DNA of 64,000 nt from Escherichia coli. Its GTDB lineage: Bacteria; Pseudomonadota; Gammaproteobacteria; Enterobacterales; Enterobacteriaceae. The stretch's first letter is position 1. Each line of letters opens with the position of its first letter. Shown here in pieces: positions 3,001 to 6,000 of the stretch. The position numbers are program-made. The stretch lies in NCBI RefSeq assembly GCF_013315695.1, contig NZ_CP054353.1; one strand, 5' to 3'.

Positions 3001-6000
3001 AATCAGCGAGGCGAATATCCTGAGTACGTTTGAACAACTGCACCAGAATAAGGATGACGTGTTTGAGCGAGGTGTGATCAACCTCTTCAGAGGTCTGAGC
3101 TGGAATTACAAAACCAATTGCCCCTGTAAATTTGGCAATAAAATTATCGTCAACAATCTGGTGAGATGGGACCGATGGGGATTGCATCTTATCACCGGGC
3201 AACAGGCAGATCGACTCGCTGACCTGGAAAGAATGCTGCATCTGTTCAGCGGCAAACCGATCCCCGACAGCCGGGAAAATATCATCATTCGGCTGGATGA
3301 TCACATCCGCTCCGTTCAGGGCAAAGCGTGCTATGAAGATGAGATGTTCAGCATCAGATACTTTAAGAAGGGCTCCGCACACATCACGTTCAGGAAACCA
3401 GAACTGGTTGACAGGCTAAATGACATAATTGCCAGGCACTATCCAAATGTATTAGCAGACAGGTAATGTGGCCTTGCCCCGCTATTAAACATGTCATATT
3501 TTTGCTATCATTGTGAAAATTTTTCGGAGGAAACATGACTACAAAAGACCGTATTCAGTCCCGACTGAACCGTTCAAAACGTTATGTGTTCACCCGGGAT
3601 GATTTCAGGGATATCGCTGGCTATGATCAGGTTGGCAGAGCTCTTCGTACACTGGTAAACGAAGGTAAGTTGATGAAAGTGGGCTATGGTGTTTACACCA
3701 AAGCCCGTCGTAACATCATCACTGGGAAAATCATGCCCGCAGCGCCTGGGGGCTCTGCTGCAGTAATTACAGAGGCCCTGGAGCGCCTGAATATCAGATA
3801 CCGTCTGGCAGGAGCAACGGAATGCTACAATAAAGGTCAGTCCACACAAATTCCTGTATCTCTGGGGATAAAAACACCTTCTCGATTTAAAAGAATGTTA
3901 ATAGTAGGGAAAAGTAAAATCAATGCCTGAATTAACATCATTATTTCCTGACGTTGCCGATGCACTGGATATTGAATCTGTCGCTATCGTCGAAAAAGAT
4001 TATTTTGTGGTTGATCTTTTAAGATTATTAAAAGAAATAAAACCAGAAACACATACTCTCGTGTTTGCAGGAGGTACCGCATTATCAAAAGCAGGTATCT
4101 CGCTAAACAGAATGTCAGAAGATATTGATATAAAGCTCGTGCCAACAGAGAACTTTATGCAAAATGGCAGAGACAAGAGAAGAAAAATTCGCAAGGAAAT
4201 CGTGCAAATAATCACGGATGTTATTCATAATTCTGACATTTTCAGCTTGGATAATGAAAACGCCCGTATAACACGTGATGAGTATCGTTATAACGAAATC
4301 TCGGTACGTTATCCCCAGACATTTGCACAAGTCCCCTGTCTTCGTCCATTTATTAAGCTGGAGTTGATGGAAAGCACTCTGCTGGAACATCCGGAAAGCA
4401 GAGATATTTATTCCCTTGTCACGGAGTTAACGGGTAAAGGTACACCTGTAACAGCATTCCCCTGTGCCACCATTTTATCCACTCAGGCTGAAAAGCTCAT
4501 CTCCATGATGCGAAGAACAGCAGCACATCTTCGTAATCCCGAACAACAGGATGATGAGTTTCTGGTACGTCACATTTACGACAACTACTGCATTGTCAGG
4601 GAAAAAGGTGTGAATGTTCCTGTATTGAAAAATTTTGTTCAGATATGTATTCAGCTATGGTAACCAGTACCCACAATTTTGTAGCTCACCAGTTGATGAA
4701 CTTAAGAAAGGGCTGGATGCACTCCGGGATTATCCTGTACACAAATTGCGCTTTCAACGATTTGTTAAACCGATGGTATTTGGTAATACACAGATTAACT
4801 GGGAAGAAGCCTATTCCAGTTTCAGACAAACAGCGCTAAGTGTTCTGACCAGCTAACAAACGCGTTAAGTACGATTCCACAATTCAGCATATCGAACCAG
4901 ACCAAATGATTACAGCAAAGCACAAAAAAGAGGGATTATAGCGTCAAAAGAATTCGAATTGCACATGGGGGCCTCATTGGTGGCCTCAAAAACAACAAAT
5001 ACAAAATAATCTATATAAAACAATTTGTTATACAATCAGTTTCATTCCGATTCCGGGCACCACTAATTCTTAAGAACCCGCCCACAAGGCGGGTTTTTGC
5101 TTTTGGATCTTTATATAAAATAAACTTGGGTGCATAACGCCATCAGGTCTTAAACACTCCCGAATCATCAATAAACATCCCCCGCTAACAAAACACAGTT
5201 CAGTTCACATAACATCCCTGTTATCCCACACATATCTGCTGGCCGAACGACGCCAGTGCGCGTACGGAGGCAAGAGCAGCCCTGCACATGGCAGCGCTTG
5301 TGGTAACCTGGTTTAATCCGGTGAAAGAGGCGTTTTACATGCATCTGCCAGCAGCCGGAAAAACCAAAAAAGTGGCGCTGGTTGACTGTATGCGTAAATT
5401 GCTGACCATCCTGAACGCAATGCTCAGAAAGAACGAAGAGTGAAATGAATCGTAGCATCATGTTGCTCCATAATTTTTACGTTCAAGACAGTTGATTATC
5501 GGCGCATATGACTCAAAAAGAGCCTGATGATTGCCTCTTTTCCATAGGCTCTTTCTCTGAAGTGAAGGAAGGCCCGGAAGAAAGCACTCGCTGGCATACG
5601 TGACTCCAGCTCAACCGGAGATAATCACCATTGTTATTTTTCTATTTAATAATAATCTCCTGAAAAATAGATATAGCAAAAATACAATCCGGCCAGATTT
5701 AATTCCGCATTCATTACCAGAAATAATCAACACTACAACTATTATATCATTCAATAGTCACCGCTAAAATTTTATTATTTTCCTCTTCTTTACATAGAAA
5801 TTATCAATCTGTTTATTATGCCGAATTTAAATAATTAATCACAAAACAATATCACCATTATTTGTGTGTTTTATTTATTAATAACATAGTCATACGTTCT
5901 TTTTTACAAGGAAATAATCAATTGATAAATTGTTTTTGGTATTAATAGTCAAGTAGGAAACATTTTAACAAATGATAAAAATCCTAAATTCCTTGTTCAT

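What the first reader, a model, noticed from the sequence alone, without database searches (positions are those of the whole stretch)
3535..4856. AbiEi/AbiEii-like toxin-antitoxin (abortive-infection) pair, toxin possibly frameshifted
Two overlapping genes (8-nt overlap) encode a small winged-HTH protein with an AbiEi-like RALRTLVNEGKLMKVGYGVY motif and a protein with AbiEii-like nucleotidyltransferase motifs (FAGGTALSKAG, SEDIDIKL). The toxin frame stops at 4663 after 246 aa, shorter than the ~290-320 aa I recall for this family. A protein-like frame stays open from 4629 to 4856 in another reading frame (…GLDALRDYPVHKLRFQRFVKPMVFGNTQINWEEAY…). A single-base indel near 4630-4660 could therefore have split the toxin, leaving the antitoxin with an inactive partner. 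A third frame (4645-4839) is also open, so this is suggestive, not proven.
Basis: partly seen in the sequence, partly recalled or inferred. Interest (0 to 1): 0.55.

Follow-up and report, generated by a model that had tools for sequence, protein, structure and literature searches.

The report
Broken AbiE toxin beside capsule genes
This is an ordinary two-gene toxin-antitoxin (phage-defence type) module of E. coli in which the toxin gene has lost 14 bases and is out of frame while its antitoxin is intact, a state public annotation already marks as a pseudogene.

Summary
Window 3535-3930 encodes a 131-aa DUF6088/AbiEi-like antitoxin. It overlaps by 8 nt a 246-aa AbiEii (DUF1814) nucleotidyltransferase ORF (3923-4663). 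The rest of the toxin lies in the +1 frame (4656-4853; 62% identity, E 4e-32, to residues 251-316 of a Dickeya orthologue).

The lesion is a 14-nt deletion (ACAGGATATTGAAC) between 4653 and 4654, not a single-base indel. It removes invariant residues of the QDIERYG motif.

RefSeq already annotates the identical DNA in Nissle 1917 as a frameshifted AbiEii pseudogene. McGarry et al. 2025 studied the same locus in CFT073 as a capsule-linked toxin-antitoxin system without mentioning the frameshift.

Among 5,426 complete E. coli genomes:
- 456 carry this -14 allele.
- 142 carry a -13 allele.
- 47 carry a W298* nonsense allele.
- 17 carry undeleted, non-nonsense alleles; 7 were examined, all intact, 6 belonging to a diverged lineage and none next to kps.

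The exact repaired protein exists on nine public contigs, one linked to kpsF.

The closest apparent characterised relative is SanaTA of Shewanella sp. ANA-3 (43-44% identity for both proteins).

Verdict: a real, correctly interpreted, already known decayed module. It has modest added interest because the toxin was knocked out more than once.

The parts
3466..3485 (+). Degenerate distal copy of a putative operator repeat (ATGTGGCCTTGCCCCGCTAT). It abuts the stop codon of the upstream DUF4942 gene.
   Evidence: Modules from Dickeya, Salmonella, Pantoea, Acinetobacter, Aeromonas and an E. coli plasmid carry two direct copies of about ATGTCGTAT(G/T)TTTGCT with a 23-nt period upstream of the antitoxin; Shewanella ANA-3 has only a weaker, shorter pair (TGCCGTATT). 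In the window this copy is decayed. The operator role is inferred.
3491..3508 (+). Proximal copy of the putative operator repeat (ATGTCATATTTTTGCTAT), about 27 nt before the antitoxin ATG. It probably overlaps the -10 region.
   Evidence: No sigma-70 consensus was found by the scan. The role is inferred by analogy with AbiEi autoregulation (PMC3985639).
3526..3530 (+). Shine-Dalgarno sequence GGAGG, 4 nt before the antitoxin start codon.
   Evidence: Read directly from the sequence.
3535..3930 (+). Intact antitoxin gene: 131 aa, DUF6088 family, with an AbiEi_4-like winged helix-turn-helix at its N-terminus (SanaA-like).
   Evidence: Pfam DUF6088 1e-8 and AbiEi_4 1.4e-4. PADLOC AbiEi PDLC02229 2.9e-52. 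44% identity, E 3e-38, to the 136-aa antitoxin on the Shewanella ANA-3 plasmid. RefSeq WP_000208382.1.
3923..4663 (+). Truncated toxin ORF of 246 aa. Residues 1-244 are authentic AbiEii nucleotidyltransferase, followed by LW and a stop codon.
   Evidence: Pfam AbiEii 4.8e-27, model positions 1-176 of 238. It retains G50-G51, S65, D67 and D69, which are invariant in alignment A2 except D67 (conserved in at least 90% of sequences).
4653..4654 (+). Deletion junction. 14 nt (ACAGGATATTGAAC, encoding part of QQDIER) are missing between these two bases.
   Evidence: Alignment A1 against the CFT073, M24 and ETEC4085 alleles. Junction census. Contigs L023 and L025 match the window except for these 14 nt (L023 also has one extra SNP).
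4656..4856 (+). Out-of-frame (+1) remnant that encodes toxin residues 250-315 plus the ancestral stop codon.
   Evidence: 62% identity, E 4e-32, to Dickeya P0052 residues 251-316. Restoring the 14 nt gives a 315-aa protein with Pfam AbiEii coverage of 1-236 of 238.
3923..4856 (+). The whole AbiEii pseudogene, as delimited by RefSeq.
   Evidence: Nissle 1917 locus tag CIW80_RS09020, annotated 'frameshifted', with DNA identical to window 3400-5100.
5071..5099 (+). Terminator-like hairpin followed by a T-run, 215 nt after the ancestral toxin stop codon. Possibly the end of the operon.
   Evidence: Consensus scan only. Function not tested.

Best explanation
The locus is a two-gene AbiE/SanaTA-type toxin-antitoxin cassette. 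It sits at the distal end of a CP4-like integrative island, just upstream of the kps (here K1) capsule cluster.

In its intact form the module is inferred to work as its characterised relatives do. A promoter overlapping two 23-nt-spaced direct repeats drives a translationally coupled operon. The 131-aa winged helix-turn-helix antitoxin represses that promoter. It also neutralises the 315-aa DUF1814 nucleotidyltransferase, probably by binding it and inducing auto-phosphorylation of Ser65. When unchecked, the toxin adds nucleotides to tRNA 3' ends and stops translation, which can abort phage infection.

In this window the toxin gene has lost 14 nt at 4653/4654. Translation therefore ends after 246 residues. 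The product lacks part of the invariant QDIERYG motif and the last four helices of the C-terminal helical domain, so the toxin is most probably non-functional.

The antitoxin gene is intact and probably still expressed. What remains is an orphan antitoxin/repressor plus a toxin pseudogene, not a working abortive-infection system.

Shown: family membership, the deletion, its population frequency, and conservation of the lost segment. Inferred: loss of toxicity, the operator role of the repeats, and the Ser65 mechanism.
For: Family assignment:
- Pfam, and PADLOC for the antitoxin and the intact ETEC4085 toxin allele, place both proteins in the AbiE family.
- An AlphaFold2 model of the repaired toxin (mean pLDDT 87.6) has MenT3/TglT Rv1045 as its best PDB match (Foldseek E 1.5e-5, probability 1.0).
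- Both proteins are 43-44% identical over their full length to the DUF6088-AbiEii pair on the Shewanella sp. ANA-3 plasmid. That pair fits the published description of SanaA (136 aa) and SanaT (Ser65) (bioRxiv 10.64898/2026.01.19.700257).

The deletion and what it removes:
- Alignment A1 defines the 14-nt deletion.
- The +1 frame is homologous to the orthologue C-terminus (E 4e-32).
- Full-length orthologues are 312-331 aa.
- The C-terminal 70 residues carry 14 invariant positions, including D246, I247, R249, Y250, G251 and W298.
- dN/dS for this segment between E. coli lineages is 0.12-0.30.
- In S. agalactiae AbiEii, C-terminal residues K252 and Y253 lie in the active-site/antitoxin interface.

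Module architecture: the 131-aa gene overlapping a 316-318-aa gene by 8 nt is conserved in Dickeya, Salmonella and Pantoea, in three different genomic contexts.

Independent annotation: RefSeq marks the same sequence as 'frameshifted'.

Population data:
- 456 genomes carry the -14 allele, 142 the -13 allele and 47 the W298* allele.
- In complete genomes, intact alleles were seen only away from kps; six of the seven examined belong to the diverged lineage.
- The exact intact ancestor protein occurs on nine contigs, one linked to kpsF.
Against: No experiment shows that the 246-aa product is inactive.

- The recognisable N-terminal catalytic residues (G50-G51, S65, D67, D69) and the invariant residues K191 and D220 all lie before residue 244.
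- The ORF has no further lesions.
- McGarry et al. 2025 (PMC12488582) report altered phage susceptibility for a CFT073 mutant lacking this locus (the -13 allele). That could mean residual function. Alternatively it could reflect the antitoxin or polar effects on kps.
- The identity of the ANA-3 pair with the published SanaTA is inferred from protein length and Ser65, not from an accession number.
Confidence: 0.85

Rival explanations
1. The truncated 246-aa protein is still an active nucleotidyltransferase toxin kept in check by the antitoxin. On this reading the pair remains a working toxin-antitoxin or abortive-infection system with a shortened toxin.
For: - The N-terminal catalytic residues G50-G51, S65, D67 and D69, plus invariant K191 and D220, are retained.
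- The 5' ORF is intact in 456 genomes.
- Deleting the CFT073 homologue changed susceptibility to some phages (PMC12488582).
Against: - The deletion removes D246, I247 and R249 and puts Y250, G251, Q253, W298 and F305 out of frame. All are invariant across orthologues at 58-93% identity.
- About four of the seven helices of the C-terminal domain in the model are lost.
- Every full-length homologue in other genera keeps this region.
- The same lineage carries different disabling lesions: -13, -14, W298* and an IS1 insertion. That pattern fits loss of function, not a new functional form.
- The CFT073 phenotypes were small and inconsistent in direction, and the deletion there also removed the antitoxin.
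Confidence: 0.1
2. After the toxin was lost, the antitoxin is maintained by selection. It could act as an orphan regulator, for example by influencing transcription that reads into kps region 1. It could also act as an anti-addiction factor that neutralises related AbiEii toxins on incoming plasmids. This refines the main explanation rather than replacing it.
For: - The antitoxin ORF is intact in all alleles examined, whereas the toxin carries at least three or four different lesions.
- The M24-type allele has 7 SNPs in the toxin and none in the antitoxin or promoter (about p=0.05 under a uniform rate).
- Related DUF6088-AbiEii modules occur on E. coli plasmids.
- McGarry et al. state that the locus is co-transcribed with capsule genes.
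Against: - The disrupted alleles differ by 8 SNPs or fewer over 1.5 kb. There has been little time for a neutral antitoxin gene to decay, so an intact gene is not evidence of selection.
- The distal operator repeat is already degenerate.
- No expression or binding data exist.
Confidence: 0.2
3. The frame break is a sequencing or assembly error, and the gene is intact in the real organism.
For: One older Nissle 1917 assembly (CP007799.1) shows the -13 junction, whereas other Nissle assemblies show -14. At least one record for that strain is therefore wrong at this site.
Against: - The exact 54-nt junction is found in 456 independently sequenced complete genomes.
- The missing stretch is 14 nt of mixed sequence, not a homopolymer.
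Confidence: 0.01

Closest known systems
SanaTA of Shewanella sp. ANA-3 (Sberro et al. 2013, as cited in PMC3985639 and bioRxiv 10.64898/2026.01.19.700257)
   Same: The architecture is the same: a short DUF6088-type antitoxin (136 aa there, 131 aa here) directly upstream of, and overlapping, a roughly 313-315-aa DUF1814 toxin. The toxins are 43% identical (E 9e-92) and the antitoxins 44% identical (E 3e-38), both over the full length. Ser65 lies in the same RMSED(I/V)DIKL context. A weaker version of the 23-nt-period upstream repeat is also present.
   Different: SanaTA is intact, plasmid-borne and sits next to a type I restriction-modification system. It was shown to protect against T7 lacking gp4.5. 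The window copy is chromosomal, capsule-linked and has a 14-nt deletion in the toxin. That the ANA-3 plasmid pair is SanaTA was inferred from protein length and Ser65, not from an accession number.
AbiEi-AbiEii of Streptococcus agalactiae and Lactococcus lactis (Dy et al. 2014, PMC3985639; Arrowsmith et al. 2026 preprint)
   Same: The toxin is a DUF1814/PF08843 nucleotidyltransferase with motif I (hGG) and motif II (DxD) at almost the same residue numbers. The genes form a bicistronic operon with the antitoxin first. The antitoxin has an N-terminal AbiEi_4-type winged helix. A hydroxyl phosphoacceptor sits at position 65.
   Different: The canonical AbiEi is a roughly 200-aa, two-domain COG5340 protein that binds inverted repeats. 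Here the antitoxin is 131 aa, scores 14 bits against the NCBIfam AbiEi cut-off of 150, and the candidate operator is a pair of direct repeats. The toxin here is truncated.
MenT3/TglT (Rv1045) and the MenAT systems of Mycobacterium tuberculosis (PMC7450476, PMC11375011)
   Same: MenT3/TglT is the best structural match for the repaired toxin model (Foldseek E 1.5e-5, TM 0.44-0.58). The S-x-D-x-D active-site arrangement is the same (S78/D80/D82 there, S65/D67/D69 here). The inferred mechanism is also shared: tRNA 3'-end nucleotidylation, neutralised by antitoxin-induced auto-phosphorylation.
   Different: Sequence identity is only 11-13%. The antitoxins are of different families. No biochemical data exist for the E. 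coli protein.
c3681-c3682 of E. coli CFT073 (McGarry et al. 2025, PMC12488582)
   Same: This is the same locus in the same position upstream of kpsF, differing by 1 SNP plus 1 nt. It was reported to be conserved next to Group 2 capsule genes in more than 500 genomes.
   Different: CFT073 carries the -13 allele, which reads through in the third frame to give a 305-aa protein with a 61-residue aberrant tail. The window carries the -14 allele (246 aa). The paper treats the pair as a functional toxin-antitoxin system, and its text contains no match for 'frameshift', 'pseudogene', 'truncat' or 'intact'.

Membership tests
AbiE (AbiEi/AbiEii) toxin-antitoxin / abortive-infection systems | The toxin belongs to the DUF1814 / PF08843 AbiEii nucleotidyltransferase family. 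| tested here: met
   Pfam PF08843 at 4.8e-27 for the truncated ORF and 1.5e-29 for the repaired ORF. PADLOC AbiEii PDLC02297 at 2.1e-125 for the intact ETEC4085 allele (L003).
AbiE (AbiEi/AbiEii) toxin-antitoxin / abortive-infection systems | Pol-beta-type catalytic motifs are present: motif I hG[G/S] and motif II [D/E]h[D/E]h. | tested here: met
   FAGGTALS (G50-G51) and SEDIDIKL (D67, D69) are present in the window ORF and are invariant or nearly invariant in 22 orthologues.
AbiE (AbiEi/AbiEii) toxin-antitoxin / abortive-infection systems | The toxin is full length, with the complete C-terminal helical domain. | tested here: not met
   The 14-nt deletion at 4653/4654 truncates the ORF at 246 of 315 residues. 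Pfam coverage stops at model position 176 of 238.
AbiE (AbiEi/AbiEii) toxin-antitoxin / abortive-infection systems | The antitoxin is a canonical two-domain COG5340 AbiEi (winged helix-turn-helix plus a C-terminal antitoxicity domain, about 200 aa). | tested here: not met
   The protein is 131 aa. NCBIfam TAA_AbiEi scores 14 bits against a cut-off of 150. Only the N-terminal AbiEi_4 winged helix matches (1.4e-4), and the best family is DUF6088. PADLOC nevertheless files this short type under AbiEi (PDLC02229, 2.9e-52).
AbiE (AbiEi/AbiEii) toxin-antitoxin / abortive-infection systems | The genes form a bicistronic operon with the antitoxin first and the genes overlapping or abutting. | tested here: met
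   The 8-nt overlap at 3923-3930 is also present in the Dickeya, Salmonella and Pantoea modules.
AbiE (AbiEi/AbiEii) toxin-antitoxin / abortive-infection systems | The toxin arrests growth and the antitoxin rescues it; the system protects against phage. | not testable with these tools
   This needs expression and plating experiments. Published data exist only for a CFT073 deletion that removed both genes (PMC12488582).
SanaTA-type (DUF6088 antitoxin + DUF1814 toxin) subfamily | Both proteins are homologous over their full length to the Shewanella sp. ANA-3 pair. | tested here: met
   The intact ETEC4085 allele of the toxin is 43% identical (E 9e-92) and the window antitoxin 44% identical (E 3e-38). 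The locus is NC_008573.1 21935-23283.
SanaTA-type (DUF6088 antitoxin + DUF1814 toxin) subfamily | A Ser65 phosphoacceptor is present next to the catalytic aspartates. | tested here: met
   S65 in RMSEDIDIKL is invariant in alignment A2. SanaT S65 is described in bioRxiv 10.64898/2026.01.19.700257. Phosphorylation itself was not tested.
SanaTA-type (DUF6088 antitoxin + DUF1814 toxin) subfamily | The antitoxin is degraded by Lon, and the system defends against T7 lacking gp4.5. | not testable with these tools
   This is an experimental property.
MenT-like nucleotidyltransferase fold | The protein has the bi-lobed NTase fold, superposable on MenT3. | tested here: met
   The AlphaFold2 model of the repaired protein (pLDDT 87.6) has nine MenT3/TglT entries as its top PDB hits, with E 1.5e-5 to 9e-5 and probability 1.0.

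The most novel reading that the evidence does not exclude
The toxin of the capsule-linked AbiE module may have been knocked out repeatedly and independently in extraintestinal pathogenic E. coli (ExPEC) lineages.

Four lesions were seen: a -13 deletion on the G3895 background, a -14 deletion on the A3895 background, W298* in K100/ST131-type strains, and an IS1 insertion. The antitoxin stays intact throughout.

This would indicate selection against an active AbiEii toxin next to kps. It would also suggest retention of the antitoxin as an orphan regulator or anti-addiction factor.

If so, the published 'capsule-TA synergy' phenotypes of CFT073 would stem from the antitoxin or from polar effects on kps transcription, not from abortive infection.
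Probability: 0.2. Interest if true: 0.5.

Novelty: already known. Interest (0 to 1): 0.3.

Why it matters
The finding corrects how a widely distributed locus should be read. The AbiE module sits next to Group 2 capsule genes in the major ExPEC clones (ST131, ST73 and others). A 2025 paper treats it as a functional, conserved phage-defence partner of the capsule. In 645 of the 664 allele-typed carriers among 5,426 complete genomes, the toxin gene is deleted, frameshifted or truncated.

Defence-system censuses that score by domain hits will count it as a working AbiE system. Experiments that delete 'the TA system' in these strains are in effect deleting an orphan antitoxin plus a pseudogene.

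Beyond this point about annotation and interpretation, the locus is an ordinary decaying toxin-antitoxin module. It opens no new mechanistic question.

Tried and rejected
- NCBIfam gave no meaningful hit for the toxin or for the C-terminal fragments. The family call therefore rests on Pfam and PADLOC.
- A sequence-only search of the PDB with the orthologue profile returned only spurious designed TIM barrels and MenT4 at E 0.73. The MenT3 relationship was visible only by fold.
- The repeat finder and the sigma-70 scan found nothing upstream of the antitoxin in the window itself. The repeat pair became visible only by comparison with other genera. I could not assign convincing -35 and -10 hexamers.
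- I first assumed the window was Nissle 1917. It is not: capsule region 2 differs and is the K1 neu cluster.
- Protein P0005 (245 aa, ending QICIQR) looked like a possible in-frame -12 intermediate. Its contig shows an IS1 end inserted at the -14 junction instead.
- I first modelled -14 as -13 plus the loss of one more base. Intact alleles turned up on both SNP backgrounds: L025 with A3895 and L026 with G3895. Independent deletions, or recombination, are therefore at least as likely, and I do not claim an order of events.
- I considered programmed frameshifting or phase variation and rejected it. The junction (TATTCA|GCTATGG) has no slippery or homopolymeric sequence, and both the -13 and -14 alleles are out of frame.
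- The first literature search for 'SanaTA' matched unrelated words.
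Full report
**1. What is in the sequence**

Window 3535..3930 (+) is a 131-aa ORF preceded by a GGAGG Shine-Dalgarno sequence. It overlaps by 8 nt (3923-3930) a 246-aa ORF at 3923..4663. Two further frames are open downstream, at 4635..4856 and 4645..4839.

**2. Family assignment**

- The 246-aa ORF matches Pfam AbiEii (PF08843) at 4.8e-27. The match covers only model positions 1-176 of 238.
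- The 131-aa ORF matches DUF6088 (1e-8) and, in its N-terminal 45 residues, the AbiEi_4 winged helix (1.4e-4).
- The window antitoxin and the intact ETEC4085 allele of the toxin (L003) match PADLOC AbiE models over their full length: AbiEi PDLC02229 at 2.9e-52 and AbiEii PDLC02297 at 2.1e-125.
- The curated NCBIfam AbiEi equivalog is not met (14 bits against a cut-off of 150). The antitoxin is therefore the short DUF6088 type, not a canonical two-domain AbiEi.

**3. The lesion**

The window DNA at 3400-5100 is 100% identical to many phylogroup B2 E. coli genomes, including Nissle 1917, ABU 83972 and JJ1886. In the Nissle RefSeq record the equivalent of 3923-4856 is already annotated as 'nucleotidyl transferase AbiEii/AbiGii toxin family protein, frameshifted'.

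I aligned the window with three other alleles:
- The window lacks 14 nt (ACAGGATATTGAAC) between 4653 and 4654.
- CFT073 lacks 13 nt at the same place.
- Strain M24 has the 14 nt but carries a TGG-to-TAG change at codon 298.
- ETEC4085 is intact at 948 nt (315 aa).

Restoring the 14 nt to the window gives a 315-aa protein reading ...QICIQ[QDIER]YGNQYPQF.... Its Pfam match extends to model positions 1-236 of 238.

The +1-frame translation of 4656-4853 aligns to residues 251-316 of the Dickeya orthologue with 62% identity and E 4e-32. The third open frame has no similarity. That third frame is the one the CFT073 -13 allele reads through, giving the 305-aa 'c3682' protein with an aberrant tail.

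**4. Is the lost part important?**

- Homologues from Dickeya, Pectobacterium, Brenneria, Xenorhabdus, Photorhabdus, Yersinia, Serratia, Pantoea, Klebsiella and Salmonella are 312-331 aa and cover 99-100% of the 315-aa query.
- In a 22-sequence alignment (58-93% identity) the last 70 residues contain 14 invariant positions. These include D246, I247, R249, Y250, G251, Q253, W298 and F305. The deletion removes or frameshifts all of them.
- dN/dS for this segment between the E. coli lineages is 0.12-0.30, from small counts.
- An AlphaFold2 model of the repaired protein (pLDDT 87.6) places residues 184-314 in a seven-helix C-terminal domain. The truncation removes about four of those helices.
- The model's best PDB matches are the MenT3/TglT Rv1045 structures (E about 1e-5, probability 1.0).
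- In the S. agalactiae AbiEi:AbiEii structure, C-terminal residues Q245-Y253 contribute to the antitoxin interface and the active-site pocket (preprint 10.64898/2026.01.19.700257). Their equivalence to the QDIERY residues here is my inference.
- The N-terminal catalytic residues (G50-G51, S65, D67, D69) and invariant K191 and D220 are retained. Inactivity is therefore probable, not proven.

**5. Closest characterised relative**

A tblastn search of plasmids found a DUF6088-AbiEii pair on the Shewanella sp. ANA-3 plasmid, next to a type I restriction-modification system. Its toxin is 43% identical (E 9e-92) and its 136-aa antitoxin 44% identical (E 3e-38) to the E. coli proteins.

The 136-aa length and Ser65 match the description of SanaA and SanaT in the Arrowsmith preprint. 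SanaTA was shown by Sberro et al. 2013 to protect against T7 lacking gp4.5 (as cited in PMC3985639).

The mechanism I infer for the intact module comes from this family:
- tRNA 3'-end nucleotidylation (PMC7450476);
- neutralisation by antitoxin-induced auto-phosphorylation of the Ser/Thr next to the catalytic aspartates (PMC11375011 and the preprint).

**6. Module architecture and candidate operator**

In Dickeya, Salmonella and Pantoea the same cassette occurs in three unrelated genomic contexts: a 131-aa gene overlapping a 316-318-aa gene by 8 nt.

In modules from six genera plus an E. coli plasmid, the region upstream of the antitoxin carries two direct copies of about ATGTCGTAT(G/T)TTTGCT. 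The period is exactly 23 nt, and the repeats end 27 to about 40 nt before the ATG; the Shewanella pair is weaker, shorter and lies further upstream. I take this pair to be the antitoxin's operator, by analogy with AbiEi autoregulation.

In the window the proximal copy (3491-3508) has two mismatches. The distal copy (3466-3485) is degenerate. The same is true of the intact E. coli island alleles, so this decay predates the toxin deletion.

**7. Population picture**

I used allele-specific junction queries that share no 28-mer with each other. In 5,426 complete E. coli genomes they gave:

| Allele | Genomes |
|---|---|
| -14 (window) | 456 |
| -13 (CFT073 type) | 142 |
| Undeleted, M24-type junction | 49 |
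| ...of which W298* nonsense | 47 |
| Undeleted, ETEC4085-type junction | 15 |

- The two M24-junction records without the nonsense codon are probably C5 plasmid A and PapRG-04-4. Both encode an intact 315-aa toxin.
- The window, CFT073 and M24 alleles differ by 8 SNPs or fewer over 1.5 kb. The other intact alleles examined differ from them by 95-122 SNPs.
- All seven intact alleles examined in complete genomes lie at the end of a CP4-like island but not next to kps.
- All disrupted alleles examined are next to kps.

The intact ancestor of the window allele does exist. The exact repaired protein is in the 15-billion-protein collection on nine contigs, whereas contig counts for each disrupted form reach the 1,000 cap. 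Three of those contigs are informative:
- L023 is linked to kpsF. Between 3310 and 5807 it differs from the window only by one SNP and the 14 nt.
- L025 equals the window apart from the 14 nt. It is an intact allele on the A3895 background.
- L026 is an intact allele on the G3895 background.

Because intact alleles occur on both backgrounds, the -14 (A3895) and -13 (G3895) deletions are most simply independent events. Recombination could also explain the pattern.

A further contig shows an IS1 end inserted at the -14 junction.

**8. Literature**

McGarry et al. 2025 (PMC12488582) describe c3681-c3682 of CFT073 as a type IV AbiE toxin-antitoxin system conserved upstream of Group 2 capsule genes in 502 genomes. 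They report modest changes in phage plating for a deletion mutant. Their text contains no occurrence of 'frameshift', 'pseudogene', 'truncat' or 'intact'. Their 1,306-bp query corresponds to the 131-aa gene plus the 305-aa read-through ORF.

**9. Verdict**

The object is a member of a known family (AbiE, SanaTA-like subtype) in a decayed state that RefSeq already flags.

The added value of this work is threefold: the exact lesion, the evidence that the lost segment is functionally constrained, and the census. The census shows that the capsule-linked module is almost always toxin-defective, through more than one lesion.

That pattern leaves room for a selection story, such as an orphan antitoxin or a cost of an active toxin. 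The very low divergence among the alleles means drift plus clonal expansion is an adequate explanation.

Noticed in passing
window 3466-3508; also L006, L007, L009, L011, L014, L015, L016 upstream of their DUF6088 genes: Two direct repeats of about ATGTCGTAT(G/T)TTTGCT, with an exact 23-nt period, lie upstream of DUF6088 antitoxin genes in at least six genera. This is a candidate operator that I found described in none of the papers read. In the window and in all E. coli island alleles examined, the distal copy is degenerate.
   Followed up: partly
window 4653/4654; NZ_CP007799.1 versus NZ_CP022686.1 and NZ_CP058217.1: Assemblies of the same strain, Nissle 1917, disagree at this site. The older 5.44-Mb record has the -13 junction and the newer records have -14. 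One record must be wrong, possibly because of reference-guided assembly against CFT073.
   Followed up: no
window 4640-4667 (restored sequence TTCAACAGGATATTGAA): The deleted stretch lies within a small quasi-palindrome (TTCAA, 7 nt, TTGAA) and an imperfect 12-nt-period direct repeat (ATTCAAC / ATTGAAC). This might make the site a deletion hotspot and could explain two near-identical deletions (-13 and -14). It is speculative.
   Followed up: no
L002 1501-2394 (strain M24; also EC958 and 45 other genomes): The W298* allele is annotated by PGAP as a normal 297-aa protein (WP_001114681.1), although it lacks the last 18 residues, including invariant W298 and F305. It also carries G51S in motif I. 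An IS5-like ISEc35 lies between it and the IS110 remnant.
   Followed up: partly
L017 1300-1335: A short-read assembly contig shows an IS1 terminal repeat (GGTGATGCTGCCAACTTACTGATTTAGT) inserted immediately after TATTCAGC of the -14 allele. This is a further decay step in some strain.
   Followed up: partly
window 14320-20768 (- strand): Capsule region 2 is the K1 polysialic-acid neu cluster. NeuD, NeuB and NeuC match their NCBIfam models above the curated cut-offs, a NeuA-sized cytidylyltransferase ORF matches only below cut-off, and two roughly 410-aa ORFs have the size of NeuE and NeuS. The window therefore comes from a K1 strain, not from Nissle (K5).
   Followed up: partly
window 1003-3466: Immediately upstream lies the usual tail of a CP4-like island: a CbeA/CbtA type IV toxin-antitoxin pair, then DUF5983, DUF957 and DUF4942 genes. 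This rests on 98% identity to the annotated Nissle region. The same gene order precedes the AbiE module in Salmonella and on E. coli plasmids, so the module travels with this island type.
   Followed up: partly
window 5261-5443: An IS110-family transposase remnant lacking its N-terminus lies between the toxin pseudogene and kpsF. It is conserved in Nissle, CFT073 and the intact-allele contig L023.
   Followed up: no
E. coli plasmids such as NZ_CP086387.1 87730-87906 (hits H209-H220): About two dozen E. coli plasmids carry only an unannotated remnant matching residues 255-313 of a related AbiEii (59% identity). This is another decayed copy of this toxin family.
   Followed up: no
window 3535-3930 (protein cluster; LC735978.1): The DUF6088 antitoxin is named 'S-adenosylhomocysteine hydrolase' in several public records (for example UniRef Q6KD06_ECOLX). 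This is evidently a propagated misannotation.
   Followed up: no
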